Part shown: positions 30,599 to 45,600 of the stretch, one piece after another
Layout: each line of letters starts with the position of its first letter
Position numbering within the stretch: the stretch's first letter is position 1
Source of the DNA: Amphiscolops sp. MND2022
Lineage: Eukaryota
Reading direction: 5' to 3'
DNA: 64,000 bases
NCBI GenBank assembly: GCA_964187785.1
Contig: OZ076409.1
Span: 496,001-560,000 of the forward strand
Notes under the pieces: generated by a model
Told to the model about the DNA's origin: nothing
Databases searched by the model: none
The model's input: the letters and a program-made list of their open reading frames with translations, nothing else
Translations under genes and position numbers: made by a program

Positions 30599-33500
30599 CC
30601 GTATTTCTTCGAATACAGGCCCGGCTTGTAAGTTTTTTTTTCGTAGCAATTTCGCGGCCTATATTCCAAGAAATACGGTTGTCTTTACTTCTAGGATGAA
30701 ATTTTCAGCCTCAATGTTCAGGCTTCAGGATGAAATAGGGGCCGCCTATATTGGAAGAAATACGGTTGTCTTTACTTCTAGGATGAAATTTTCAGCCTCA
30801 ATGTTCAGGCTTCAGGATGAAATAGGGGCCGCCTATATTGGAAGAAATACGGTTGTCTTTACTTCTAGGATGAAATTTTCAGCCTCAATGTTCAGGCTTC
30901 AGGATGAAATAGGGGCGGGCCTATATTCGAAGAAATACGGTTGTCTTTACTTCTAGGATGAAATTTTCAGCCTCAATGTTCAGGCTTCAGGATGAAATAG
31001 GGGCCGCCTATATTAGAAGAAATACGGTTGTCTTTACTTCTAGGATGAAATTTTCAGCCTCAATGTTCAGGCTTCAGGATGAAATAGGGGCCGCCTATAT
31101 TGGAAGAAATACGGTTGTCTTTACTTCTAGGATGAAATTTTCAGCCTCAATGTTCAGGCTTCAGGATGAAATAGGGGCCGCCTATATTCGAAGAAATACG
31201 GTTGTCTTTACTTCTAGGATGAAATTTTCAGCCTCAATGTTCAGGCTTCAGGATGAAATAGGGGCCGCCTATATTGGAAGAAATACGGTTGTCTTTACTT
31301 CTAGGATGAAATTTTCAGCCTCAATGTTCAGGCTTCAGGATGAAATAGGGGCCGCCTATATTCGAAGAAATACGGTTGTCTTTACTTCTAGGATGAAATT
31401 TTCAGCCTCAATGTTCAGGCTTCAGGATGAAATAGGGGCCGCCTATATTCGAAGAAATACGGTTGTCTTTACTTCTAGGATGAAATTTTCAGCCTCAATG
31501 TTCAGGCTTCAGGATGAAATAGGGGCCGGCCTATATTGGAAGAAATACGGTTGTCTTTACTTCTAGGATGAAATTTTCAGCCTCAATGTTCAGGCTTCAG
31601 GATGAAATAGGGGCCGCCTATATTCGAAGAAATACGGTTGTCTTTACTTCTAGGATGAAATTTTCAGCCTCAATGTTCAGGCTTCAGGATGAAATAGGGG
31701 CCGCCTATATTCGAAGAAATACGGTTGTCTTTACTTCTAGGATGAAATTTTCAGCCTCAATGTTCAGGCTTCAGGATGAAATAGGGGCCGGCCTATATTG
31801 GAAGAAATACGGTTGTCTTTACTTCTAGGATGAAATTTTCAGCCTCAATGTTCAGGCTTCAGGATGAAATAGGGGCCGCCTATATTCCAAGAAATACGGT
31901 TGTCTTTACTTCTAGGATGAAATTTTCAGCCTCAATGTTCAGGCTTCAGGATGAAATAGGGGCCGGCCTATATTGGAAGAAATACGGTTGTCTTTACTTC
32001 TAGGACGAAATTTTCAGCCTCAATGTTCAGGCTTCAGGATGAAATAGGGGCCGCCTATATTCGAAGAAATACGGTTGTCTTTACTTCTAGGATGAAATTT
32101 TCAGCCTCAATGTTCAGGCTTCAGGATGAAATAGGGGCCGGCCTATATTGGAAGAAATACGGTTGTCTTTACTTCTAGGATGAAATTTTCAGCCTCAATG
32201 TTCAGGCTTCAGGATGAAATAGGGGCCGCCTATATTCCAAGAAATACGGTTGTCTTTACTTCTAGGATGAAATTTTCAGCCTCAATGTTCAGGCTTCAGG
32301 ATGAAATAGGGGCCGGCCTATATTGGAAGAAATACGGTTGTCTTTACTTCTAGGATGAAATTTTCAGCCTCAATGTTCAGGCTTCAGGATGAAATAGGGG
32401 CCGCCTATATTCGAAGAAATACGGTTGTCTTTACTTCTAGGATGAAATTTTCAGCCTCAATGTTCAGGCTTCAGGATGAAATAGGGGCCGGCCTATATTG
32501 GAAGAAATACGGTTGTCTTTACTTCTAGGATGAAATTTTCAGCCTCAATGTTCAGGCTTCAGGATGAAATAGGGGCCGGCCTATATTGGAAGAAATACGG
32601 TTGTCTTTACTTCTAGGATGAAATTTTCAGCCTCAATGTTCAGGCTTCAGGATGAAATAGGGGCCGCCTATATTCGAAGAAATACGGTTGTCTTTACTTC
32701 TAGGATGAAATTTTCAGCCTCAATGTTCAGGCTTCAGGATGAAATAGGGGCCGCCTATATTCGAAGAAATACGGTTGTCTTTACTTCTAGGATGAAATTT
32801 TCAGCCTCAATGTTCAGGCTTCAGGATGAAATAGGGGCCGGCCTATATTGGAAGAAATACGGTTGTCTTTACTTCTAGGATGAAATTTTCAGCCTCAATG
32901 TTCAGGCTTCAGGATGAAATAGGGGCCGCCTATATTCCAAGAAATACGGTTGTCTTTACTTCTAGGATGAAATTTTCAGCCTCAATGTTCAGGCTTCAGG
33001 ATGAAATAGGGGCCGGCCTATATTGGAAGAAATACGGTTGTCTTTACTTCTAGGATGAAATTTTCAGCCTCAATGTTCAGGCTTCAGGATGAAATAGGGG
33101 CCGCCTATATTCGAAGAAATACGGTTGTCTTTACTTCTAGGATGAAATTTTCAGCCTCAATGTTCAGGCTTCAGGATGAAATAGGGGCCGGCCTATATTG
33201 GAAGAAATACGGTTGTCTTTACTTCTAGGATGAAATTTTCAGCCTCAATGTTCAGGCTTCAGGATGAAATAGGGGCCGCCTATATTCCAAGAAATACGGT
33301 TGTCTTTACTTCTAGGATGAAATTTTCAGCCTCAATGTTCAGGCTTCAGGATGAAATAGGGGCCGGCCTATATTGGAAGAAATACGGTTGTCTTTACTTC
33401 TAGGATGAAATTTTCAGCCTCAATGTGGCTTCAGGATGAAATAGGGGCCGCCTATATTCGAAGAAATACGGTTGTCTTTACTTCTAGGATGAAATTTTCA

Positions 33501-34986
33501 GCCTCAATGTTCAGGCTTCAGGATGAAATAGGGGCCGGCCTATATTGGAAGAAATACGGTTGTCTTTACTTCTAGGATGAAATTTTCAGCCTCAATGTTC
33601 AGGCTTCAGGATGAAATAGGGGCCGCCTATATTCCAAGAAATACGGTTGTCTTTACTTCTAGGATGAAATTTTCAGCCTCAATGTTCAGGCTTCAGGATG
33701 AAATAGGGGCCGCCTATATTCGAAGAAATACGGTTGTCTTTACTTCTAGGATGAAATTTTCAGCCTCAATGTTCAGGCTTCAGGATGAAATAGGGGCCGG
33801 CCTATATTGGAAGAAATACGGTTGTCTTTACTTCTAGGATGAAATTTTCAGCCTCAATGTTCAGGCTTCAGGATGAAATAGGGGCGGGCCTATATTGGAA
33901 GAAATACGGTTGTCTTTACTTCTAGGATGAAATTTTCAGCCTCAATGTTCAGGCTTCAGGATGAAATAGGGGCCGGCCTATATTGGAAGAAATACGGTTG
34001 TCTTTACTTCTAGGATGAAATTTTCAGCCTCAATGTTCAGGCTTCAGGATGAAATAGGGGCGGGCCTATATTGGAAGAAATACGGTTGTCTTTACTTCTA
34101 GGATGAAATTTTCAGCCTCAATGTTCAGGCTTCAGGATGAAATAGGGGCGGGCCTATATTCGAAGAAATACGGTTGTCTTTACTTCTAGGATGAAATTTT
34201 CAGCCTCAATGTTCAGGCTTCAGGATGAAATAGGGGCCGCCTATATTCGAAGAAATACGGTTGTCTTTACTTCTAGGATGAAATTTTCAGCCTCAATGTG
34301 GCTTCAGGATGAAATAGGGGCGGGCCTATATTGGAAGAAATACGGTTGTCTTTACTTCTAGGATGAAATTTTCAGCCTCAATGTTCAGGCTTCAGGATGA
34401 AATAGGGGCCGCCTATATTCCAAGAAATACGGTTGTCTTTACTTCTAGGATGAAATTTTCAGCCTCAATGTTCAGGCTTCAGGATGAAATAGGGGCGGGC
34501 CTATATTGGAAGAAATACGGTTGTCTTTACTTCTAGGATGAAGTTTTCAGCCTCAATGTTCAGGCTTCAGGATGAAATAGGGGCCGCCTATATTCGAAGA
34601 AATACGGTTGTCTTTACTTCTAGGATGAAATTTTCAGCCTCAATGTGGCTTCAGGATGAAATAGGGGCGGGCCGGCCTATATTCGAAGAAATACGGTTGT
34701 CTTTACTTCTAGGATGAAATTTTCAGCCTCAATGTGGCTTCAGGATGAAATAGGGGCGGGCCGGCCTATATTCGAAGAAATACGGTTGTCTTTACTTCTA
34801 GGATGAAATTTTCAGCCTCAATGTTCAGGCTTCAGGATGAAATAGGGGCGGGCCGGCCTATATTCGAAGAAATACGGTTGTCTTTACTTCTAGGATGAAA
34901 TTTTCAGCCTCAATGTTCAGGCTTCAGGATGAAATAGGGGCCGGCCGGCCTATATTCGAGGACGACTTCTATTCGAAGAAAGACGG
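30599..34986. repeat. 87/88-bp satellite (~49 units, ~30655-34960) expanded inside a Tc1/mariner(pogo)-type MITE
   Basis: Unit GCCTATATTCGAAGAAATACGGTTGTCTTTACTTCTAGGATGAAATTTTCAGCCTCAATGTTCAGGCTTCAGGATGAAATAGGGGCC. Flanked by inverted CCGTATTTCTTCGAATA (30599) and TATTCGAAGAAAGACGG-TA (34986). An unexpanded relative lies at 49101-49260. Confidence 0.92.
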
Positions 34987-35815: not shown

Positions 35816-36096
35816 CTCTTATGAAGCCGGGCAAAAGCTTCAAAAACTATGGTACCCAAAGGTGGCACCCTTTGAAAACACTAGAGATTGCTTTCTAGTA
35901 AGATAGGAAGGCCTATAGAAATTCTGTAAAAAGTGGACCTTTCAGTGTGAGGAGGTCTGTTGTCTAGAGAAAAAATTCTAGGCACTGCAAGATTCGGGCA
36001 TTTTTTGTTTCACAAAAAGCGACGATCAAAAACGGCCAAACTTCAACCAATCAAATCATTGTATATCTACGGACAAGATGTCATTTACATGAGGGG

Positions 36097-36339
36097 TGTT
36101 ACGTAACATTGATGTTACTCAGAAGTCAAACTTGAACTTTGATTGCAAGAATAATTGACTAATGACTCATAAGTTCTAATGCGGTAAAACAGTGTGGACA
36201 AATGTGGTATGTAACTCTACTTCTACTTATTCGACGATTTATAAAGACTATCAGGTAATCCCTTTTTGTTGTTTCTAGTATTGAATTACAACTATTCTGA
36301 AGGTTGGATTTTGCAAACACTAACTGTCCACACGAAGCA
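36097..36339 (+). repeat. 5' LTR
   Basis: TGTTACGTAAC...ACACGAAGCA; TATAAA at 36240. Confidence 0.95.
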
Positions 36340-36374
36340 TTCAATACACAAAAGGCAACTGTTACGAAAAAAGA

Positions 36375-39300
36375 ATGGAAGGGGCTTCTCAAACGTCTTT
36401 GGAAAGATCTAGGAGTCTTGCTCTGAGGAACTTCAAAAAAGCAGCTAGTCGCTACGAAACATTCCTGTCAAGTAACGAATTAGATAACGAGGAACACGAT
36501 GTGTTGTTCCAAGATCTTTTCAAGTCCTGGAATGAATTGATTGAAAAACACGAAAAACTTGTTCTACAAAAAACTGATGCTAGTGAAGAGGATTTTGCTT
36601 TCATCGATGAGAATGAATTGCTTTTCCATACATTACGCTCGCAAAGTTTACAGTTCAAGAAAAAAAAGAAAAAAATTAAAGAAGAACAAGTTAACCTCGA
36701 GCAAAAGAAAATCCAAGATGAACCTACGGAGAAGCAAACACAAAATATAGAAAATGCAAAAATTCAAATGACTACACTTTGTTCAAGCTACGAAATGGAA
36801 ATGAATCGACTACAAAATATTGTTCTGAGCTTTACAGATGCAGCATTAACAAGTGAGAAAGCTTTGAGAGATATTAAACGTGATTTTGAACACCAAACAG
36901 AAAAAGTCTCGCATCTGTTCAACATCACGGCTCAACATGCCGAGACAAACGATTTGGAATTGACCATAAAGGCGTCCTTTATTGATTTAGAGCAAAATTT
37001 CAATGTGCAATTCTACAAAAAAGTAAACGTGATCCAAGGAAATGAAACAAAAAACCCTACGACGGCTAAACATCCATCTACTCATTTGGAGAAAATTAAA
37101 TTTCCAGTTTTTAATGGCAAAACCAGGGACTGGCCTAAGTTCAAGAAAGATTTCCAGTCGCAAGTAGTGCCCTTCATAACCGAGGACACAACTAAATGTT
37201 ATACGCTTAGAAACGCGCTTCCTGAAGATGCAAAAGTTTGGGTTAGAAACATGGACAATTTTGTTGAAATGTGGAAAAGGTTAGACGAAAAGTATGGTGA
37301 TGAAGGCAAAATGGTTGACATAATTCTTGCAGATGTCAAAAATTTCGAACAGATCAAAGATAACGAAAACAAACGTTTAATACAGTTCATTGATGTCTTG
37401 GAAAAGGTAAACTTGGAAATGAAATTTCTGGGCAGAGAGTCAGAATTACAAAACACTACGATAGTCAATATCATCGAAAGAAAGCTACCGAATGATTTGA
37501 AAATGAAATGGATAGAGCGCATTTATGAACAAAACAGCAGAGTTGACAAACTGAATAAATTCCCTGATCTGCTGGCGTTTTTGTTAGAACGGAAACTGAT
37601 GTTAGAGTACAATGAGGACAAACTGGAAAGTACTTCAGAACCAAGCCTAACGGCTAAAATTCACTTGGCTCGCAAACAGGAAGAAGTCCGAGGAACTGAA
37701 ACAATGCGAAAAGCAACAACAGCTTGTTTACTTCATAGTACAGGCGTACACAAAACAGAAGATTGTCGATTGTTTTTGCAAAAGACTGTTAAAGACAGAA
37801 GCGCTTTAGCTAAAGAAAAGAAAGCTTGTTTCAACTGCCTGCTGATAGGGCATACTGCCAGAAATTGCCGGAATAAAGCAGCGTGTCCAAAGAAAGAGTG
37901 TGGTAAAAACCATCACAAGCTTTTGCACGATGATTTCTGGGAAGAAGGCCAAAGTAAGGTGAAATTGTCAGTCAATTGTAATTTAGGTCGTCAATCAAGT
38001 TCCTTCAGCGATTCCACTTTTCTACAGATTATGCCTGTAAAGTTAGAGAGCAAAACAGCAGCAGACACAGTGTTAGCTATATGGGACTCGGCTTCCACTG
38101 TTTCTCTTATTTTGAATTCTACAGCCAAAAATTTACGGCTGCCTGGTCGGCCCGTCTCCGTGGTGATGGAAACTCTCGGTAGTGTGTCTAAAATACAGAC
38201 CAAACTGTATCAGGTACATGTCAAGGACAAATGTGGTAACACAATACGCTTTGAAGCATTCGGTGTTCCTGAAATTTCAAAGGATTTCTACAATTTGGCA
38301 TGTAACGTTAGACACTTCCCGGAAGAATTTGCCGAGGACGAAGAAGTTTCAGGTAAACTGCAGCTGCTATTTGGATTAAATGTAGCTCAGTTTCATCCGG
38401 TACCCGTGAAATCACAAGGTAGTCTAGTACTTTTTGAAAACGTTTTTGGGTTCTGTGTTGGAGGCACATTGTCAGATGGACATTGCGACAGGTTTCCAAA
38501 GGTCAACCTAAGTTTAACGAAAGTCAACTTGTCAGATTTTTTTGGAACTGAAAATATGGGAGTATCTTGCACACCGAAGTGCGCAAACTGTAAATGTGGC
38601 AATTGTCCTCTAGGTGCAGCGGAATTTTCAATTAAAGATCAGAAAGAGATTGAAATGATTGACAAAGGTTTAAAACTGGAAGATGGTGTATGGACAGCAA
38701 CTTATCCTTGGGTCAAAGATCCTAAGTATCTGCCTAATAATAAACCTTTTGCGGAAAGGCTTTTAGTCGGGACCGAGAAAAGACCTTTGAAAAATCCTGA
38801 GCATGCGAAAGTGTATCAAGAACAAATGCAGGACATGCTAGACAGACAGGTAGCTCGAAAACTTGACCGAAATGACTTGAACTACGATGGGCCAGTACAC
38901 TATATCACTCATCATGAAGTTCTGAAGGAGGAATCTACAACAACTCCTTGCAGGATTGTTTTCAATGCGTCTGCAAACTATTGCGGACATAGTTTGAATG
39001 ACTATTGGGCAAAAGGACCCGATCTTTTGAACGATTTGAAGGGCATTTTGATCAAGTTCAGAGAAGAAGTGGGTTACATCGGAGACATACGGAAAATGTA
39101 TCATACGGTAAGGATCACGATTCCTGATCAACAAACACACAGATTTCTGTGGAGAGATCTGAATCCAGAGAAAAAACCAGAAGAATACATGATGGAAGTG
39201 AGGTCCTTCGGGGACAAACCTGCAGCTACAATCGTTCAGCTGGCTCTGCGGAAAACCGCAGACCTGGCAACAAATGACCAATCAGAAGCAAAAGCAGTCA

Positions 39301-41855
39301 TTTATACGTCAACGTATATGGATGATATCATCAGCAGCGTTAATACAATAGGCGAAGCTGCCAAACAGACAACATCAATTGATAATTTACTCCAGAAAGG
39401 TTCATTCCGAGTTAAAAAATGGGTTTATTCAGGCGACAGCGACAGTGAAGTACCATTAATGGGTAGTATTGAGGATCAAAAGGTTCTGGGCATGGTATGG
39501 GACAATGGTAAGGATGTTTTGAAGTACACGTCCAAAGTGAAAATCAAAGAGCCCGGTAAGAAAGGAAAAAAGTTGATTTTCAATACACTGGAGCAATTAG
39601 AATCAGAAGCCCCGACTTGCTTAACAAGGCGTCAAGTGCTGTGTCAAATGAATTCAGTGTTTGATCCATTGGGTTTAGTAGCACCGTTTGTCTTGAAAGG
39701 CAAACTATTGATGCGCGAAACGTGGGAAACTGAAAAAGAGCTCGCTTGGGATGATAACCTCGCGGCTGACGTTAGTGCATCTTGGTTGTTATTCTTCAAA
39801 GAATTGTTTCAGTTAAAAAAGGTTGAGATCAGGCGTTGCGCCAGATCTAGTTTCACAGCAGTAGGGTCACCAACTCTAGTGTTATTCAGTGACGCTTCAC
39901 AGGTAGCATTTGGTGCTTGTGCGTACGTTGTATGGCATGACAAAGCTGGCAAAGGTTCAGCTAGATTGTTGGCCGCTAAAAGTAGACTGGCACCAACAAA
40001 ACGGGTGTCAATAGTACGCTTGGAACTTTGTGGAGCACTCATGGCGGTTAGATTGAAAAGGTTTCTTTGCAAACATAGCAGGTGGGCGTTTGCAAAGATC
40101 ATGTACATTGTCGACTCCGAAATTGTAAGAGCCATGTTACAAAAGGATTCATATGGGTTCAACACGTTCACCGGTCTGCACGTCGGTGAAATACAGACCA
40201 CTGAAGATCCTCACGACTTCTACTGGATAGCAGGAGGAAAGAACATAGCGGATCTACTTTCTAGAGGTTCAACACCCGATAAATTGTTAGAACACTCCGA
40301 ATGGCAGCGAGGGCCCGAATTCTTGCAATGGCCAGTGCAAGAGTGGCCTTTACAGCAACGGCAATACCGATTAGAAAATTTACCTGAGTTGATGCAAACT
40401 ACAACATTAACAAATGTTTTGCAATTAGAGTGCGAGGTTGTGGATGCAAAGAGGTTTACCAGCGTCAGAATATTGAAGCGCACGTTGGCAAGAGTACAAG
40501 CGGTGTTTTCGGGAACTAAAAAATCTTTGACTCGCATCTTTGAAAATCCAACAAAGGAGTGTATAGAGAAAGCTTGGACTTTGTTACTCCTGTGCGAGCA
40601 GAAGGTTCTTCAAGAGGACTATCAGAAAGGAAAATTCAGCAATTTGGGTGCCGACAAAAACAAGAATGGTATTATCGTGGTAGGAGCAAGGGTTGGTGCG
40701 GCAGTGCCATTGTTGAGGCAGTCATCGTTATCTGATTTGTTAGTCCGGGATGCGCATAATCAAGGGCACTTGGGTGTTGCAGCAACTACAAGCAAAGTGA
40801 GAGCACTGGCCTGGGTAATCAACCTGCCCAAGCTTTCGAAAAAAGTTGTTAGAAGTTGTTATGGCTGTCGGCTTTACAATAAGGAGACAGTGCAGCAATT
40901 TTTAGGGTCACCGCCAGACGAGAGGCTGAAACCATCTTTACCATTCACTAACGTTTGCTTGGATTTGTTTGGACCATTCAACGTCCGTCTAACGATGTCT
41001 AAAACTGACATTGGAAAAGCATACGGAGTTATAATTACCTGTATGTTCACAAGAGCAATTCACCTCGACGTTGCAGCGGAGTACTCTACTGAAGCGTTTT
41101 TACAGGCTTTCAGAAGGTTTACATCGGTTAGGGGAACTCCCGAAGTTAAATTTTCCGATTCAGGCACACAACTGGTGGGCGCTAATGCTATCATTCAGGC
41201 AGCAATGCGAGAGATGGATCGCAAACATGCGACCGAGGCTTGCAAAGACATTCGTTGGGAGTTTGCACCGGGCGGAGCACCATGGAGACAAGGCTGCGCA
41301 GAGTCATTAATAAAAACGGTGAAGAAAAGTTTGTTCTTTGCTGTGGGGAGACAAAAACTATCAATTCTAGAGTTACAAACAGTTTTGTTTGAGGCGGCTA
41401 ACTTGATCAATTCTCGACCGATGGGTACACACCCTACTCATCCCGATGATGGCTGCTACTTGTCGCCAAACGAGATGCTACTGGGAAAGTCAGCAGGCGG
41501 AAGTATCGTCTTAGCCAATGAACGAAATAAACTTGGGCACAGGCTGAGCTTGGTGGAAAATGTGCTAAAAGGATTTTGGAAGAGATGGCAAATGTTGTAC
41601 ATGTATAGCATGGCTCACTTGAAAAAGTGGACCAAGAAACATAGAAATGTTCAAAAGGGTGAAGTGGTGTTGGTAGAAGACAACAATGCACTGAGAGGTC
41701 ACTGGACTATTGGTAGAGTTAAAGAATGCTACCCCGGAAGAGATGGGTTGGTCCGTGATGTCGAGGGCGAGATCGTCAAAGCAAATGGAGTGAAGACAAC
41801 AGTGTCCAGACCAGTACAAAAACTCTCCAGTTTGGTACCTATTGAAGAACAATAG
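36375..41855 (+). CDS. BEL/Pao gag-pol polyprotein (1826 aa)
   Basis: Gag (KFPVFNG..DWPKF), zinc knuckles CFNCLLIGHTARNC and CPKKECGKNHHKLLH, aspartic protease WDSAS, RT (CRIVFNAS, YMDD), Pao RNase H/peptidase A17 (FSDAS, ELCGA, DSEI), integrase (H..H..CYGC, DLFGP, SDSGT, AESLIK) and C-terminal W..GRV...PGRDGLVR. Domain order PR-RT-RH-IN. Confidence 0.96.
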   Translation: MEGASQTSLERSRSLALRNFKKAASRYETFLSSNELDNEEHDVLFQDLFKSWNELIEKHEKLVLQKTDASEEDFAFIDENELLFHTLRSQSLQFKKKKKKIKEEQVNLEQKKIQDEPTEKQTQNIENAKIQMTTLCSSYEMEMNRLQNIVLSFTDAALTSEKALRDIKRDFEHQTEKVSHLFNITAQHAETNDLELTIKASFIDLEQNFNVQFYKKVNVIQGNETKNPTTAKHPSTHLEKIKFPVFNGKTRDWPKFKKDFQSQVVPFITEDTTKCYTLRNALPEDAKVWVRNMDNFVEMWKRLDEKYGDEGKMVDIILADVKNFEQIKDNENKRLIQFIDVLEKVNLEMKFLGRESELQNTTIVNIIERKLPNDLKMKWIERIYEQNSRVDKLNKFPDLLAFLLERKLMLEYNEDKLESTSEPSLTAKIHLARKQEEVRGTETMRKATTACLLHSTGVHKTEDCRLFLQKTVKDRSALAKEKKACFNCLLIGHTARNCRNKAACPKKECGKNHHKLLHDDFWEEGQSKVKLSVNCNLGRQSSSFSDSTFLQIMPVKLESKTAADTVLAIWDSASTVSLILNSTAKNLRLPGRPVSVVMETLGSVSKIQTKLYQVHVKDKCGNTIRFEAFGVPEISKDFYNLACNVRHFPEEFAEDEEVSGKLQLLFGLNVAQFHPVPVKSQGSLVLFENVFGFCVGGTLSDGHCDRFPKVNLSLTKVNLSDFFGTENMGVSCTPKCANCKCGNCPLGAAEFSIKDQKEIEMIDKGLKLEDGVWTATYPWVKDPKYLPNNKPFAERLLVGTEKRPLKNPEHAKVYQEQMQDMLDRQVARKLDRNDLNYDGPVHYITHHEVLKEESTTTPCRIVFNASANYCGHSLNDYWAKGPDLLNDLKGILIKFREEVGYIGDIRKMYHTVRITIPDQQTHRFLWRDLNPEKKPEEYMMEVRSFGDKPAATIVQLALRKTADLATNDQSEAKAVIYTSTYMDDIISSVNTIGEAAKQTTSIDNLLQKGSFRVKKWVYSGDSDSEVPLMGSIEDQKVLGMVWDNGKDVLKYTSKVKIKEPGKKGKKLIFNTLEQLESEAPTCLTRRQVLCQMNSVFDPLGLVAPFVLKGKLLMRETWETEKELAWDDNLAADVSASWLLFFKELFQLKKVEIRRCARSSFTAVGSPTLVLFSDASQVAFGACAYVVWHDKAGKGSARLLAAKSRLAPTKRVSIVRLELCGALMAVRLKRFLCKHSRWAFAKIMYIVDSEIVRAMLQKDSYGFNTFTGLHVGEIQTTEDPHDFYWIAGGKNIADLLSRGSTPDKLLEHSEWQRGPEFLQWPVQEWPLQQRQYRLENLPELMQTTTLTNVLQLECEVVDAKRFTSVRILKRTLARVQAVFSGTKKSLTRIFENPTKECIEKAWTLLLLCEQKVLQEDYQKGKFSNLGADKNKNGIIVVGARVGAAVPLLRQSSLSDLLVRDAHNQGHLGVAATTSKVRALAWVINLPKLSKKVVRSCYGCRLYNKETVQQFLGSPPDERLKPSLPFTNVCLDLFGPFNVRLTMSKTDIGKAYGVIITCMFTRAIHLDVAAEYSTEAFLQAFRRFTSVRGTPEVKFSDSGTQLVGANAIIQAAMREMDRKHATEACKDIRWEFAPGGAPWRQGCAESLIKTVKKSLFFAVGRQKLSILELQTVLFEAANLINSRPMGTHPTHPDDGCYLSPNEMLLGKSAGGSIVLANERNKLGHRLSLVENVLKGFWKRWQMLYMYSMAHLKKWTKKHRNVQKGEVVLVEDNNALRGHWTIGRVKECYPGRDGLVRDVEGEIVKANGVKTTVSRPVQKLSSLVPIEEQ

Positions 41856-41867
41856 CGGGCCCCGGAG

Positions 41868-42110
41868 TGTTACGTAACATTGATGTTACTCAGAAGTCAA
41901 ACTTGAACTTTGATTGCAAGAATAATTGACTAATCACTCATAAGTTCTAATGCGGTAAAACAGTGTGGACAAATGTGGTATGTAACTCTACTTCTACTTA
42001 TTCGACGATTTATAAAGACTATCAGGTAATCCCTTTTTGTTGTTTCTAGTATTGAATTACAACTATTCTGAAGGTTGGATTTTGCAAACACTAACTGTCC
42101 ACACGAAGCA
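41868..42110 (+). repeat. 3' LTR
   Basis: Copy of 36097-36339, preceded by the PPT-position sequence GCGGGCCCCGGAG. Confidence 0.95.
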
Positions 42111-42611
42111 AGGGGAGAGGAAAACTTTCTGGAACAAACTTTCCTCCTCCACGCACACACATGTTGAGAAGCAACGCGGCAAAAAAGGATGATTCACATC
42201 ATTTCGATGAGCTTCAAATCAAAATTAAATTTAGGGCTTTTCAATTGTTTGTCGGCTCAACGCATCCCTCGCCTGGACGGTTTAATAGATGAAAAAACAT
42301 GGTGTTCATGGTACAACTAATCAAAGGTACAATTGACTAATAATGTATAAATGATGTTTTTGAAGCAATCAGTTAGATTAATTTATGGCTGGTATATTCA
42401 TTCAACTAGAGTATTTCTTCAACTTCAAATCTGTCCAGTACATTTGGTAGAAGTCGCCAAATTGTCAAGTGATAATTTAGTGGAAGCTGTCCAGTAATTT
42501 GTCCCGCAATGAAAATCATTTCAAATCCAATCCCAATCCAATCCAATCTACTCCAATCAGCTCCTCGTAATTAGCCCCCCCCCCACCCAACTGACTCAAT
42601 TGGTGTGGCAT

Positions 42612-45600
42612 TCATGGTGATTCGGGGGTCTGTTGGTCGTGCGGGGTACTGCTGCTGCTGCTCACTTTGAGATTGTAGAGCGCGAAGTGTAGTAAGAGCA
42701 TGTGTGTCTCTCTGACGTAATGGAAAGTGGCCGAGTACTCAGAACAGCACCTTTCGCCCTGAAACAACACAGTCTATCTCTCTCACACACAATTGACACA
42801 CCTCCTTCTACTCCATACAGCAGTACGGTAACGCCACTCCATTGCTTAGAAAAGCAAGTTCAAATACATAGTTTCTTAAAGCTGTCATAGATACTAAAAA
42901 GCAAACTACGAAAGTTTCTTGCAACTTTTTGCAATTCCACAAATATTCGTTTGAAATTTCGGCTACAATAAATACGCAAGAATGTGCAAATTTTGATCGA
43001 AGTCAATCAAAATAGCACTTCTATGAAGTTAAGAAGTCAAAACATTGATTCTCTAAAATTTTCTGTTAACATATTTACCCCCAAATCACCTATGCGATGG
43101 CGTATTTGTTGTAATTCCGAACCAATTGGCAATTAAGACAATTGAGAGTTCAGGGGTTTTAAGGAGTTTCAAAATGGAAAACGTTCCCAAAAAGTAAATT
43201 TCAAGTTACAAAAAGTTTGAAAAAAACTCAAACTCCGATTAAAATTTAATCAAAATTGTTGTAACTTTTGCAATCGGTGTCGTAGAAATTTTGAAAACTA
43301 GGAAAAATTCCTAGAAATTTTAGACGCTGACTAGTTTCCGCTTCTGTGGCCAATTTTGAGGTATTTGGATTGGATTTTTACTTCAAGCTATGGTGTCGCG
43401 TTATTTTAAGTCCCGTTTACGGATTGTTCTCTAGAATAACGCTCCACACTAGCGTTATTAGATACGTTGGAAATTTGTGCCATTTCAAAATTAGCTTCAT
43501 GAATTTCAGTTCAGTTACGCAGAGAAAAGCCTCTGGTTGTACTTCAAAACAACGCTAGAGGTTGTACTATCATCATCAAGGAGTGATCTTGAAAAATTTG
43601 AATCGAAATTCAGTGTCTCAGATACAACACTGTCACTGTCGTGGAAGAAGGAATTCAAGTGGAAAAACTCAGTGTCGCTGGGTATCGAGATTAAGTCTTC
43701 TTAATCATCAGCAAGGGGGAGAAGGGTTGGAGAAAGGCCAGCTTCCAGGGTAATTAAAGAAGCATATCTGGAATTACTATGTTACTACACTCCTGTTTAA
43801 TCATTAATATTTCCGCCCCCCAAATTTATTTGTGAATGGGGGAGGAAAATCATAATCTGTCTTGTATTTTTTTCCAAATTCCGCCAAATCTCCACTTTAT
43901 TACTGCATTTAGTGAAATCTAGTCACCATGGCGCAGGTGGTAGTGCGTCTTCCTGGCAGACACGAGGTCGCGGGTTCGAACCCGTGCTGATGCGTTACAT
44001 TTTTAGCGGAAAATATCCCGGTGCTTAGCGGACGTCTTGTATAACATAATTAACACAGAGGCGAAGCCGTGCTTCGCAAACACTTGCGAAGAAAGTTGCG
44101 AACTTTTGAAGAAAACCAAATAAGCAATATCATACAGGGAACTAATGATAAAAGAACATTAAAATTTCATCAAATTTACAGCGCCAAAAATACCCGAAGG
44201 GATACGCATATATCTCGAAAATCATTCTTCCCCAACTGGAAACAGCAAAAACCCATCATTCTCAACCAAAAACCTTTCAAAAAACAGAAAATAGAGGAAA
44301 CTTTTTTCGAAATAAAATTTTTGATGAAGGTCTCCGGTAAGTTGCATAATGCCGAAAACCTTGAGATGTCCTTTATGCTCGTAAAACGTTTCGTTTCTAG
44401 TAAAAATTGATAGAGAGCTTCGATGAAAACAAATTAGAAAAAAAAGTGGCATAGAAAAAACACCGGTCCTTAAAAAAACAAAAATCGGATATAGAGTGCT
44501 GGGCCTGAGAAAACCTAATTTTAAGACAAAAATGATTCATTTAAAAAAATCTCACAATGCCGAAAACTGTGAAAGTGGGGCTGTTTGAGATTTTCAAACA
44601 TCCATTGTGTTGCAAAATTTCAAAAAAATTAAGGGGAACCTTTGGTACAATCAAAAAATTTGAACAATTTTCGGAAAAAAAAACAAAAAATGCTTCAAAA
44701 AAAATCGGATATAGCATGCTGGGCCTCAGAAAACCTAATTTTAAGACAAAAATTATTCACTTTGAAATTTCTCACAATGCCGAAAACTGTAAAAGGGGGC
44801 CCTTTGAGATTTTTTAACAAGCATTCTGTTGCAAAATTTCAAAAAAATTGAAGGGGAACCTTTGGAGTCGTTGAAAAATTTCGAAAAAAAAACAAAAAAC
44901 ATGAGAATTTTTAAGTCTCATAGTGCCGAAAAATCTGAAAGAAGAGACCCTTTGGGATTTTTCAACATTCGTTCTGTTGCAAAATATCAAAAAAATTGAA
45001 GGCAGGGCCCTTTGGGGGACATTGAAAAAATTTCGAAAAAATCTCACAAAGCCGAAAAGGGTAGGGGGTCTCAGTGCCGAAAAAGTGAGCAGCTTCTGCT
45101 TCGGATTACTTGTTAAAAAAATAGCGCATACGCACGGGTTCGAACACGGACCCCCTCGGTTGAAAAGCAAGCATCTTACCACTAGACCACGAACGCCTGA
45201 ATTATGCGACTTGCGGGCTGAAACGAGAGTTGTCGCGCGGAAAAAAAGCACCCGCACTTTCCCATAACACTTGCTTATCGCAAGTGTAACCACTGTACCA
45301 GTTCACACCGCCTTTGATTTTTCTCGAACTACAAGCTTTGTTATTTGAACAAGAGAAAACACAACGACCAAGCGTACAAGCGTACAACGACACATATTGG
45401 CATGAAATAGAAATTTGTACAGAAAAAACCGGCGACACTAACCTTTACCGGCTAGTGTAATTAAAATGTGCCGTGAAATGAACGCACACCAATGGAGATT
45501 AACAGCTGAAAAGCAGACCCGAAATCAGGTTCAATGTGATTAACCTCGACAGTGATTTCGTCCTCAAATGAGGACAGCGATTTTTTCTATCAATAAAAAT

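What the first reader, a model, noticed from the sequence alone, without database searches (positions are those of the whole stretch)
36240..36360. BEL/Pao retrotransposon with no tRNA PBS: possible Tf1-like self-priming
Seen: the 5' LTR (ends 36339) is followed by TTCAATACACAAAAGG, not the TGG... complement of a tRNA CCA end, and the ORF starts only 35 nt later. Seen: TTCAATAC (36340-36347) is the exact reverse complement of GTATTGAA inside the LTR (36278-36285). That site is about 38 nt downstream of TATAAA (36240), near the expected transcript 5' end. The next block, ACAAAAGG, can pair with CCTTTTTGT (36261-36269) with one bulge. Known: fission yeast Tf1 (Ty3/gypsy) primes reverse transcription by folding the mRNA 5' end onto the PBS. 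Inference: this recently active BEL/Pao element may self-prime, which I do not know to be established for this superfamily.
Basis: partly seen in the sequence, partly recalled or inferred. Interest (0 to 1): 0.78.

Follow-up and report, generated by a model that had tools for sequence, protein, structure and literature searches.

The report
BEL/Pao retrotransposons that prime themselves
A young BEL/Pao retrotransposon and three sister families in the same animal genome have no tRNA landing site; instead, the eight bases after the left repeat pair with eight bases inside that repeat, which suggests they start reverse transcription with a piece of their own RNA.

Summary
The element (window 36097-42110) is a 6014-bp BEL/Pao LTR retrotransposon. 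Its 243-nt LTRs differ at 1 base, its target duplication is AGGGG, and it has one open 1826-aa frame. TTCAATAC follows the 5' LTR directly and is the exact reverse complement of GTATTGAA at 36278-36285. On its own this is weak: 258 of 20000 shuffles give such a match.

Relatives give the real support. Three sister families in the same genome share 48-52% protein identity with this element, and their LTRs are about 50% identical to its LTR. All keep an exact 8-nt pairing in the same place, but as TTCAAATC/GATTTGAA, so an AT-to-TA swap occurs on both sides. In all four families the pairing starts at the first base after the LTR and stops at an A/A mismatch next to a YAG motif.

A distant BEL/Pao element in the same genome has an 18-nt perfect tRNA-Lys site, which serves as a positive control.

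Best reading: self-primed reverse transcription of the Tf1 type, about 0.7.

- **Not shown:** the transcript start, the cleavage, and the primer itself.
- **tRNA sampling:** only five anticodon classes were sampled.
- **Literature:** I found no report of self-priming in BEL/Pao in the library searched.
- **Earlier scan:** it noted a similar BEL group in another genome.

The parts
36092..36096 (.). 5-bp target site duplication AGGGG (left copy)
   Evidence: Identical to 42111-42115.
36097..36339 (+). 5' LTR, 243 nt, TG...CA
   Evidence: Direct repeat with 41868-42110. The two copies differ at 1 of 243 bases, position 36164.
36240..36245 (+). TATAAA, the only TATA-like hexamer in the LTR
   Evidence: It lies 37 nt upstream of the A at 36277. 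The sister families have no TATAAA/TATATA.
36276..36277 (+). TA just before the pairing site. The A at 36277 is the inferred first base of the RNA (YA|G context shared by all four families).
   Evidence: The context is CTA|G, TCA|G, GTA|G and TTA|G in families A-D. The A faces an A at PBS position 9 in all four. The RNA start is inferred, not measured.
36278..36285 (+). GTATTGAA, the proposed self-primer (its 3' A at 36285 would carry the priming 3'-OH after cleavage)
   Evidence: Exact reverse complement of 36340-36347. The counterpart in families B-D is GATTTGAA. The pairing is intact in 14 of 22 family-A junctions.
36286..36339 (+). Rest of R-U5 (54 nt) between the primer and the PBS
   Evidence: In families B-D this stretch is similar between families (z 3.4-4.3), while the 60 nt upstream of the site are not (z 0.1-1.4).
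36340..36347 (+). Primer binding site TTCAATAC, starting at the first base after the LTR
   Evidence: There is no TGG here. The best complement to 16 sampled host tRNAs is 7 nt, and it is internal to the tRNA.
36348..36355 (+).
   Evidence: It pairs with 36261-36269 with one bulge. Families B, C and D have no equivalent when their post-PBS and upstream sequences are compared. The partner lies upstream of the inferred RNA start.
36375..41855 (+). Single open reading frame, 1826 aa: gag-protease-RT-RNase H-integrase polyprotein
   Evidence: Pfam hits are DUF1759, Peptidase_A17 (Pao), Integrase_H2C2 and DUF5641.
37110..37529 (+). Gag-type domain DUF1759 (aa 246-385)
   Evidence: Pfam E 1.6e-14.
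37827..37868 (+). CCHC zinc knuckle (aa 485-498)
   Evidence: Motif search.
38082..38096 (+). Protease motif WDSAS (aa 570-574)
   Evidence: Motif search. Its reading as the aspartic protease active site comes from general knowledge.
39315..39326 (+). Reverse transcriptase YMDD (aa 981-984)
   Evidence: Motif search.
39624..40118 (+). Pfam PF05380 'Pao retrotransposon peptidase' domain (aa 1084-1248), the BEL/Pao hallmark
   Evidence: Pfam E 1.2e-42. It lies downstream of YMDD.
40722..40883 (+). Integrase zinc-binding domain (aa 1450-1503)
   Evidence: Pfam E 7.4e-08.
41541..41831 (+). DUF5641 (aa 1723-1819), C-terminal domain common in BEL/Pao polyproteins
   Evidence: Pfam E 1.3e-21.
41856..41867 (+). 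Plus-strand primer region CGGGCCCCGGAG, between the stop codon and the 3' LTR
   Evidence: The ...CCGGAG|TGT junction is shared by families A, C and D; family B has GGCGGGAG|TGT.
41868..42110 (+). 3' LTR
42111..42115 (.). Target site duplication AGGGG (right copy)

Best explanation
The element belongs to a small clade of BEL/Pao LTR retrotransposons: four families in this genome, A (the window's family), B, C and D. This clade has replaced the tRNA primer binding site with an 8-nt sequence complementary to its own LTR.

Proposed mechanism, by analogy with Tf1:
1. Transcription starts at or just before the A at 36277. RNA bases 2-9 (GUAUUGAA) fold back, or pair in trans within an RNA dimer, onto UUCAAUAC right after U5.
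2. The element's RNase H cuts after the paired GAA.
3. The freed 3'-OH primes minus-strand strong-stop DNA at the last base of U5. This fits the LTR ending exactly where the pairing begins.
4. Plus-strand synthesis copies the primer back into the PBS, so a change in the LTR site is passed on to the PBS. That would explain the concerted AT-to-TA swap between family A and families B-D.

Shown: the anatomy, the conservation, the covariation, recent transposition of all four families, and the lack of a tRNA-type site.
Inferred: the RNA start, the cleavage, and the identity of the primer.
For: 1. It is a BEL/Pao element and a young insertion. Pfam finds PF05380, DUF1759, DUF5641 and Integrase_H2C2. 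The LTRs differ at 1 of 243 bases, the duplication is 5 bp, and the frame is open.
2. The exact 8-nt pairing starts at PBS base 1.
3. Sister families have 48-52% protein identity to A and 59-66% to each other. Their LTRs are 46-55% identical to each other and to A.
4. In 7 of 7 full elements of B, C and D, the first 8 nt after the LTR are TTCAAATC. The exact complement GATTTGAA lies 65-82 nt before the LTR end. These copies have LTR pairs 96.0-99.6% identical, and the copies I checked by eye have 5-bp duplications. This PBS type therefore supports transposition.
5. The two states differ by AT versus TA on both sides, and complementarity is kept.
6. In all four families the pairing ends at an A/A mismatch after exactly 8 nt, next to YA|G. 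It extends into U5 by at most 1 nt.
7. Families B, C and D agree for only 9 nt after the LTR and then diverge. In contrast, a distant BEL/Pao element (27% protein identity) has an 18-nt perfect complement of host tRNA-Lys(UUU)+CCA, placed 2 nt after its LTR.
8. Chance per family: 258, 718, 713 and 873 of 20000 shuffles anywhere in the LTR; 117, 235, 246 and 263 of 20000 in the last 100 nt.
9. Genome-wide, 39 of 50 matches to AGATTTGAA-N53-83-TTCAAATCA are B, C or D copies. 16 of 22 matches to AGTATTGAA-N53-83-TTCAATACA are A copies. None of the 18 and 9 matches to the two crossed combinations is from these families.
10. In family A, 14 of 22 junctions keep 8 of 8 pairs, including all 10 copies with at least 93.9% LTR identity.
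11. The minimum-energy fold of the RNA from the inferred start to PBS+4 closes with this helix in 4 of 4 families.
12. Among B, C and D, sequence downstream of the site is similar (z 3.4-4.3) while the 60 nt upstream are not (z 0.1-1.4). This is what a U3/R border at the site would give.
Against: - The RNA 5' end is unmapped, so the defining Tf1 feature (the primer is the first bases of the mRNA) is inferred only.
- Promoter support is weak. TATAAA lies 37 nt upstream of the inferred start, further than usual, and families B-D have no TATAAA/TATATA.
- 8 bp is shorter than the 11 bp of Tf1 (PMC7175516 passage).
- The covariation is one event on one branch, A versus (B,(C,D)). The 8 imperfect family-A copies show only one-sided changes.
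- Folding support is uneven. z-scores are -1.0 to -2.6. Helix probability is 0.93-0.98 in A, 0.55-0.96 in B, 0.17-1.0 in C, and at most 0.07 in D, where a local hairpin with a nearby TTCAA competes.
- Host tRNAs were sampled poorly: 16 distinct sequences of Arg(TCT, TCG), Lys(TTT) and Pro(TGG, CGG), out of 117,979 first-look candidates.
- tRNA-like repeats that carry the 8-mer in the anticodon-arm position do exist: 33 matches against 5 controls, and 11 against 3.
- All evidence is from one genome.
Confidence: 0.7

Rival explanations
1. A host RNA is the primer: a 5' tRNA half (as in copia), a tRNA-like SINE transcript, or another small RNA ending in ...GAUUUGAA (families B-D) or ...GUAUUGAA (family A). 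The LTR-internal match would then be irrelevant to priming.
For: - The genome holds very many tRNA-like sequences (117,979 first-look candidates).
- The 8-mers followed by a B-box-like GGTTCRANYC at 8-22 nt occur 33 times (control 5) and 11 times (control 3).
- One of these (L093) has a perfect anticodon stem-loop with loop TTTGAAA, and several end in a T run.
- Half-tRNA priming is known in Ty1/copia (PMC6317226 passages).
Against: - It does not explain why each of four families carries the exact complement in its own LTR at the same relative place, or why LTR site and PBS changed together.
- 0 of the 11 tRNA-like loci I fetched (11 of the 44 matches) is called a tRNA by ARAGORN. The best Rfam tRNA score is 25.4 bits, below the 29-bit threshold. 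They are heterogeneous single copies.
- Beyond the 8 nt forced by the pattern, L093 matches the PBS complement of B-D for 1 more base.
- Mature tRNA 3' ends (CCA) are excluded because there is no TGG.
- The 16 sampled tRNAs give at most 7, 5, 5 and 5 nt, none at a 3' end.
Confidence: 0.12
2. The element does prime itself, but not from the RNA 5' end. In this reading the LTR site marks the end of R (the cleavage/polyadenylation site) or lies in U3. The primer then comes from the 3' part of the genomic RNA, or from a second RNA, rather than from a Tf1-like 5' fold-back.
For: - The earlier scan note e1-7468529 (unchecked, another genome).
- The site ends in GAA, which is a plausible cleavage context.
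- In family A the only hexamer resembling a poly(A) signal is TATAAA, 32-40 nt upstream of the site, and a GT-rich stretch (GGTTGGATTTTG) follows 17 nt downstream.
- The TATA-to-site spacing is long for a transcription start.
Against: - A poly(A) tail would leave the 3' end unpaired, because the U5 bases facing it are not U. A further trimming step would be needed.
- No AATAAA or ATTAAA lies upstream of the site in families B-D (LTR sequences).
- The pairing has a fixed 5' boundary (8 nt, A/A mismatch, YAG context) in all four families. An RNA 5' end predicts this; a 3' end does not.
- Between-family similarity begins at the site and runs downstream.
- This route has no experimental precedent, whereas the 5' route is proven for Tf1.
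Confidence: 0.12
3. The complementarity is chance, or serves another RNA structure (packaging, dimerisation, translation control), and the real primer and its site are unknown.
For: - For the window element alone the match occurs in 1.3% of shuffles.
- An unrelated ~190-nt repeat family carries the same two 9-mers at similar spacing inside the repeat.
- The crossed-pattern controls give 9-18 unrelated matches genome-wide.
Against: - Four families with LTRs only 46-55% identical keep an exact pairing that begins at the first base after the LTR. That is exactly where a primer's 3' end must sit to produce the observed LTR boundary.
- No other candidate PBS exists between the LTR and the start codon, which is 35 nt away in A and closer in B and C.
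Confidence: 0.04

Closest known systems
Tf1, Tf2 (S. pombe) and Tj1 (S. japonicus): self-primed Ty3/gypsy elements of the Tf1/sushi group
   Same: - No tRNA-type PBS.
- The sequence right after the 5' LTR is complementary to an upstream LTR sequence taken to be the RNA 5' end.
- RNase H is proposed to free the primer.
Sources: PMC7175516 and PMC4600332 passages.
   Different: - A different superfamily: BEL/Pao domains, no Ty3/gypsy signature or chromodomain found by Pfam.
- 8 paired bases instead of 11.
- The RNA start and cleavage are proven for Tf1 and only inferred here.
- Animal host.
[quoted passage not shown]
   Same: Self-priming was inferred from sequence alone, by PBS complementarity to the LTR and absence of a tRNA match (PMC6317226 passages).
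   Different: Those cases cover the two other LTR-retrotransposon superfamilies. The papers I saw list none for BEL/Pao.
Canonical BEL/Pao elements with tRNA primer sites
   Same: The same polyprotein architecture and 5-bp duplications. Examples are the element in L061 of this genome and Achilles of the olive fly, whose PBS is complementary to 18 nt of tRNA-Tyr (PMC4580426 passage).
   Different: L061 has TGGCGCCCCACAAGGGAC, an 18-nt perfect complement of host tRNA-Lys(UUU)+CCA, and no LTR complement of 6 nt or more. The window's clade has neither a TGG nor a tRNA match.
copia-type priming by a 5' half of tRNA
   Same: The PBS does not begin with TGG. The primer 3' end would lie in an anticodon loop, and the 8-mers here do end in UUGAA, which resembles some anticodon loops (my recollection of tRNA-Gln and tRNA-Ser loops, not a tool result).
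   Different: - No host tRNA with the needed sequence was found.
- A half-tRNA primer does not predict a matching, covarying site inside the element's own LTR.

Membership tests
BEL/Pao LTR retrotransposons | Polyprotein with the Pao/BEL hallmark domains | tested here: met
   PF05380 E 1.2e-42, DUF1759 E 1.6e-14, DUF5641 E 1.3e-21, Integrase_H2C2 E 7.4e-08.
BEL/Pao LTR retrotransposons | LTRs with TG...CA ends, a target site duplication, and the order gag-PR-RT-RH-IN | tested here: met
   243-nt LTRs and a 5-bp AGGGG duplication. CCHC at aa 485, protease motif at aa 570, YMDD at aa 981, integrase zinc domain at aa 1450.
Self-primed LTR retrotransposons (Tf1-type mechanism) | No PBS complementary to a tRNA 3' end next to the 5' LTR | tested here: met
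   No TGG between the LTR end and the start codon. The best complement to 16 sampled host tRNAs+CCA is 7 nt and internal, while the control element gives 18 nt. The tRNA sample is incomplete.
Self-primed LTR retrotransposons (Tf1-type mechanism) | The sequence directly after the 5' LTR is complementary to a sequence in the LTR | tested here: met
   Exact 8 nt in the window copy and in 7 of 7 full elements of three sister families.
Self-primed LTR retrotransposons (Tf1-type mechanism) | The complementary LTR sequence is the first bases of the element's mRNA | not testable with these tools
   No transcript data could be laid on the region. Indirect only: a YA|G context, a sharp 5' end of pairing in 4 of 4 families, and a similarity boundary at the site.
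Self-primed LTR retrotransposons (Tf1-type mechanism) | Pairing is kept in relatives through changes on both sides | tested here: met
   GTATTGAA/TTCAATAC in A versus GATTTGAA/TTCAAATC in B-D. This is one event on the tree.
Self-primed LTR retrotransposons (Tf1-type mechanism) | RNase H cleavage of the RNA duplex frees the primer | not testable with these tools
   Biochemical. Known for Tf1, between bases 11 and 12 (PMC7175516 passage).
Self-primed LTR retrotransposons (Tf1-type mechanism) | Supporting RNA structure (a U5-IR-like stem-loop) around the primer-PBS duplex | tested here: inconclusive
   The minimum-energy folds close with the duplex in 4 of 4 families, but the inner helices differ and z is only -1.0 to -2.6. 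Helix probability is at most 0.07 in family D.
Tf1/sushi group (Ty3/gypsy chromoviruses), phylogenetic membership | Ty3/gypsy-type polyprotein with a chromodomain integrase | tested here: not met
   Pfam reports only BEL/Pao-type domains and no chromodomain. The element works like Tf1 but is not a member of that group.
Half-tRNA-primed elements (copia type) | PBS complementary to an internal tRNA stretch ending in the anticodon arm | tested here: inconclusive
   No match in the 16 sampled tRNAs. Of 44 genome matches to 8-mer plus B-box, 11 were examined and 0 of 11 is a bona fide tRNA. The full tRNA set was not available.

The most novel reading that the evidence does not exclude
Self-primed reverse transcription is so far proven only for Tf1 and inferred only for some Ty3/gypsy and Ty1/copia lineages. 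On this reading it also operates in a clade of animal BEL/Pao elements, with a primer of only 8-9 nt taken from the very start of the RNA.

It would then exist in all three LTR-retrotransposon superfamilies. That would mean either repeated loss of tRNA priming or survival of the hairpin priming that has been proposed as ancestral (PMC3601003 passage).

The concerted AT-to-TA swap would be a natural record of the primer being copied into the PBS at each cycle.
Probability: 0.55. Interest if true: 0.75.

Novelty: new variant of a known kind. Interest (0 to 1): 0.62.

Why it matters
How reverse transcription is primed is a core trait of retroelements, and in the papers I could read, BEL/Pao is the superfamily for which it is least described. 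Two large BEL/Pao surveys do not mention a primer site at all.

- A self-primed BEL/Pao clade would show that independence from host tRNAs arose, or persisted, in every LTR-retrotransposon superfamily.
- It would explain why tRNA-based annotation pipelines leave some BEL/Pao elements without a primer site.
- It would offer four young, diverged families with a short 8-bp primer duplex on which to study what RNase H recognises.
- It also gives a simple search rule for such elements: the reverse complement of the first 8 nt after the LTR lies 50-90 nt before the LTR end.

Tried and rejected
- **RNA evidence:** The look-up of sequencing runs for window 36000-37200, kind rna, listed no RNA holder, so read laying was not used and the transcript start stays unmapped.
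- **Fetch allowance:** Only one distant element (L061) and short stretches could be read.
- **Search for a fifth family:** a Gag N-terminus search scored 131 of 585 candidates. The 8 low-identity hits I fetched were decayed B, C or D copies. L044 is a rearranged C copy. L059 lacks its 5' end.
- **Second pairing block:** rejected, because families B-D have no counterpart.
- **Family D's TGGTACA at the LTR end as a tRNA site overlapping the LTR:** rejected, because A, B and C have no TGG there.
- **Resemblance of TTCAAATC/TTCAATAC to a tRNA T-loop:** it is in the sense orientation, not the complement, and the sampled host tRNAs have TTCGAGTC, TTCGAATC or TTCGATTC. I treat it as coincidence.
- **CACAAAAGG after the PBS in family A:** it resembles the distal part of a tRNA-Lys site (7-nt complement to tRNA-Lys positions 62-68). 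It is absent in B-D and was not pursued.
- **Rfam scan of the element:** only a chance lncRNA match, E 0.64.
- **Promoter motifs:** no consistent TATA spacing and no DPE at a fixed distance (by eye).
- **snRNAs, rRNAs and other small RNAs:** not compared with the PBS.
- **Tf1 primary papers and the 1997 list of self-primed elements:** not held.
- **Earlier-finding look-ups:** by sequence, by place and by relatives, none gave anything.

Full report
**1. What is there**

The window holds a complete LTR retrotransposon at 36097-42110 (6014 bp).
- The LTRs (36097-36339 and 41868-42110, TGTTAC...GAAGCA, 243 nt) differ at one base, 36164.
- A 5-bp duplication, AGGGG, flanks the element.
- One open frame (36375-41855, 1826 aa) matches four Pfam families: PF05380 'Pao retrotransposon peptidase' (E 1.2e-42), DUF1759, DUF5641 and Integrase_H2C2.
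- It contains a CCHC knuckle, a WDSAS protease motif and YMDD, in the order expected for BEL/Pao.

It is therefore a young BEL/Pao insertion. The host assembly is a 1.07-Gb eukaryote. The LTR plus leader gave 41 matches at 85-100% identity.

**2. The observation**

- TTCAATAC (36340-36347) begins at the first base after the LTR and is the exact reverse complement of GTATTGAA (36278-36285), 38 nt after TATAAA (36240).
- No TGG lies between the LTR and the ATGG of the start codon, 35 nt on.
- The bulged second pairing, ACAAAAGG with CCTTTTTGT (36261-36269), also exists.

Taken alone, the 8-mer match is only mildly unlikely. It occurs in 258 of 20000 dinucleotide shuffles of the LTR, and in 117 of 20000 within the last 100 nt.

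**3. Related families**

A protein search of the host genome found three further families. I call them B (L036, L039, L047), C (L037, L038, L041) and D (L042, L051, L050, L053, L056/57).

| Comparison | Protein identity (stops read as X) |
|---|---|
| A to B, C, D | 48-52% |
| B to C, B to D, C to D | 59%, 61%, 66% |

- This gives the tree A | (B, (C, D)).
- Their LTRs (272-327 nt) are 46-55% identical to each other and to A after alignment, which is close to unalignable.
- The seven full elements have LTR pairs 96.0-99.6% identical. The copies I checked by eye have 5-bp duplications, so these families also moved recently.

In 7 of 7 of these elements the first 8 nt after the LTR are TTCAAATC, and the exact complement GATTTGAA lies in the LTR 65-82 nt before its end. 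Three further 5' junctions (L047, L050, L053) show the same. One old D copy (L056/57, LTRs 96.6% identical) has a single PBS change.

Per-family chance of such a match is 718, 713 and 873 of 20000 shuffles.

**4. Covariation and boundaries**

- Family A has G-TA-TTGAA / TTCAA-TA-C. Families B-D have G-AT-TTGAA / TTCAA-AT-C. Two adjacent positions differ on both sides, and all eight pairs are kept.
- On the tree this is one event, so the covariation argument rests on a single compensated change plus deep conservation.
- In all four families the pairing stops after exactly 8 nt at an A/A mismatch. The LTR base before the site is A, preceded by C or T (CTA|G, TCA|G, GTA|G, TTA|G).
- Towards U5 the pairing extends by at most one base.
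- The duplex therefore begins where a primer's 3' end must sit to give the observed LTR boundary, and ends at a motif that could be an initiator.
- Families B, C and D share only 9 nt after the LTR and then diverge. This fits an 8-nt self primer better than a shared host primer.

**5. Population view**

In family A, 14 of 22 5' junctions keep 8 of 8 pairs. All 10 copies with at least 93.9% LTR identity to the window copy do. The 8 imperfect copies are all at or below 93.4% and show one-sided changes only, as expected for decay after insertion.

| Pattern (genome-wide) | Matches | Reversed-pattern control | From families A-D |
|---|---|---|---|
| AGATTTGAA-N53-83-TTCAAATCA | 50 | 8 | 17 B, 15 C, 7 D |
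| AGTATTGAA-N53-83-TTCAATACA | 22 | 1 | 16 A |
| Crossed: AGATTTGAA with TTCAATACA | 18 | 3 | 0 |
| Crossed: AGTATTGAA with TTCAAATCA | 9 | 1 | 0 |

This mostly reflects family inheritance. It also shows a background of about 10-20 unrelated matches per pattern.

**6. Control and tRNA tests**

- A distant BEL/Pao element from the same genome (L061; 27% protein identity over aa 230-1820) has TT followed by TGGCGCCCCACAAGGGAC after its LTR. That is an 18-nt perfect complement of host tRNA-Lys(UUU)+CCA, and the element has no LTR complement of 6 nt or more. The method therefore finds a classic site where one exists.
- The host tRNA sample is poor. The Rfam tRNA search scored 63 of 117,979 first-look candidates. 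The 20 stretches I fetched gave 18 genes and 16 distinct sequences, covering only Arg(TCT, TCG), Lys(TTT) and Pro(TGG, CGG).
- The longest complements of these tRNAs to the PBS regions of A-D are 7, 5, 5 and 5 nt, none at a 3' end. Mature CCA ends are excluded in any case, because there is no TGG.
- To probe half-tRNA priming I searched for each 8-mer followed at 8-22 nt by a B-box-like GGTTCRANYC. This gave 33 matches (control 5) and 11 matches (control 3).
- I fetched 11 of these 44. ARAGORN of 11 a tRNA, and the best Rfam tRNA score is 25.4 bits against a threshold of 29. They are heterogeneous, degenerate tRNA-like repeats.
- A host primer cannot be fully excluded, but it would not explain the matching, covarying site in each LTR.

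**7. RNA structure and the position of the site**

Structure:
- Folding the RNA from the inferred start to PBS+4 gives a minimum-energy structure closed by the primer-PBS helix in 4 of 4 families. The z-scores are unremarkable, -1.0 to -2.6.
- In longer contexts, helix probability is 0.93-0.98 for A, 0.55-0.96 for B, 0.17-1.0 for C, and at most 0.07 for D, where a nearby TTCAA forms a competing hairpin. Thermodynamics alone does not carry the case.

Position of the site:
- Among B, C and D, the stretch from the site to the LTR end is significantly similar (z 3.4-4.3), while the 60 nt upstream are not (z 0.1-1.4). For A against the others both are weak. This fits a U3/R border at the site.
- Promoter motifs are not consistent. 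TATAAA lies 37 nt upstream in A, and B-D have none.
- An earlier, unchecked note of this scan (e1-7468529, another genome) read a similar BEL group as pairing with the RNA's poly(A) site. I keep that as a rival. I rate it lower because a poly(A) tail would leave the 3' end unpaired, because B-D lack a canonical poly(A) signal upstream, and because the fixed 5' boundary of pairing is what an RNA 5' end predicts.

**8. Mechanism proposed**

By analogy with Tf1, whose first 11 RNA bases pair with the PBS and are cut off by RNase H between bases 11 and 12 (PMC7175516, passage read):
1. The RNA of these elements would start at the A before the site.
2. Bases 2-9 would pair with the PBS.
3. RNase H would cut after GAA.
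4. The 3'-OH would prime strong-stop DNA at the last U5 base.

Copying of the primer into the PBS during plus-strand synthesis is known for tRNA-primed elements as general retrovirology (my recollection). It would let a change in the LTR site spread to the PBS, which would account for the concerted swap. Everything from the RNA start onward is inference.

**9. Known and new**

- Self-priming is proven for Tf1. [quoted passage not shown]
- For BEL/Pao I found no such report. Four searches were answered. In the last of these, 9 papers hold both 'self-priming' and 'Pao'. By title, and in the 5 of these whose passages I read (PMC5445492, PMC6317226, PMC5443660, PMC3601003, PMC2864245), none is about BEL/Pao priming.
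- Two BEL/Pao surveys (PMC3118150, PMC554778) contain no occurrence of PBS, tRNA or priming.
- One BEL element, Achilles, is described with a tRNA-Tyr site (PMC4580426 passage).
- Subscription papers, including the 1997 list of self-primed elements and the early BEL papers, were not available. Priority therefore cannot be claimed firmly.

**10. Verdict**

I file the finding as a new variant of a known kind: Tf1-like self-priming in a different superfamily with a shorter duplex. Confidence is 0.7 that the primer is the element's own RNA, and somewhat lower that it is the very 5' end.

Noticed in passing
window 30657-34946: A satellite array of about 49 copies of an 87-nt unit with a 175-nt higher-order period (97% matches), 1.1 kb upstream of the element.
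   Followed up: partly
window 41856-41867; L036, L037, L042 just before their 3' LTRs: The plus-strand primer region is not a classic polypurine tract. It is a C-rich run ending in GGAG...CCCCGGAG|TGT in families A, C and D, and GGCGGGAG|TGT in B.
   Followed up: no
L037 and L042 LTRs, 2-9 nt after GATTTGAA: Families C and D carry a second TTCAA (CAATTCAAC / CAATTCAAG) just downstream of the proposed primer. It can trap the primer in a local hairpin. In D this outcompetes the long-range helix in the predicted ensemble, where helix probability is at most 0.07. It may be a switch, or just noise.
   Followed up: partly
LTRs of families A-D, 22-44 nt after the inferred RNA start (window about 36309-36320): A short block, TTTT(G/A)(A)CAAA(C/T)AC, is shared by all four otherwise diverged LTRs at a variable distance from the site. 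Its function is unknown. It could lie near the R/U5 border.
   Followed up: no
L101/L102 (G000 C1:80503960-80504420 and 80510609-80511069); also C4:6983053/6990583 and C7:68088262: A repeat of about 190 nt (TGTTAG...AACAC), found in pairs 6.6-7.5 kb apart on one strand, holds both AGTATTGAA and TTCAATACA inside the repeat. It may be the LTR of another element with an internal hairpin. It is unrelated in sequence to family A.
   Followed up: partly
L044 (G000 C4:82208029-82215096): A family C copy whose 5' LTR is cut about 130 nt before its end and joined directly to gag sequence, preceded by the 3' part of another copy. This is a rearranged or tandem arrangement.
   Followed up: partly
G000 C7:5.23-5.34 Mb, C1504, C8:47.9 Mb, C9:57.55 Mb: Dense clusters of tRNA-Lys(TTT), tRNA-Arg(TCT/TCG) and tRNA-Pro genes, with 117,979 first-look tRNA candidates genome-wide. 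This points to very abundant tRNA-derived repeats.
   Followed up: no
L061 (G000 C7:22267886-22277885, minus strand): A 7.3-kb BEL/Pao element of a distant lineage: 291-nt LTRs 99.7% identical, a 1768-aa frame, and a perfect 18-nt tRNA-Lys(UUU) primer site 2 nt after the LTR. The genome holds at least 6212 first-look PF05380 candidates.
   Followed up: yes
window 44477-44579 and 44697-44799: Two 103-nt direct repeats, 88% identical and 220 nt apart, downstream of the element. Not examined.
   Followed up: no
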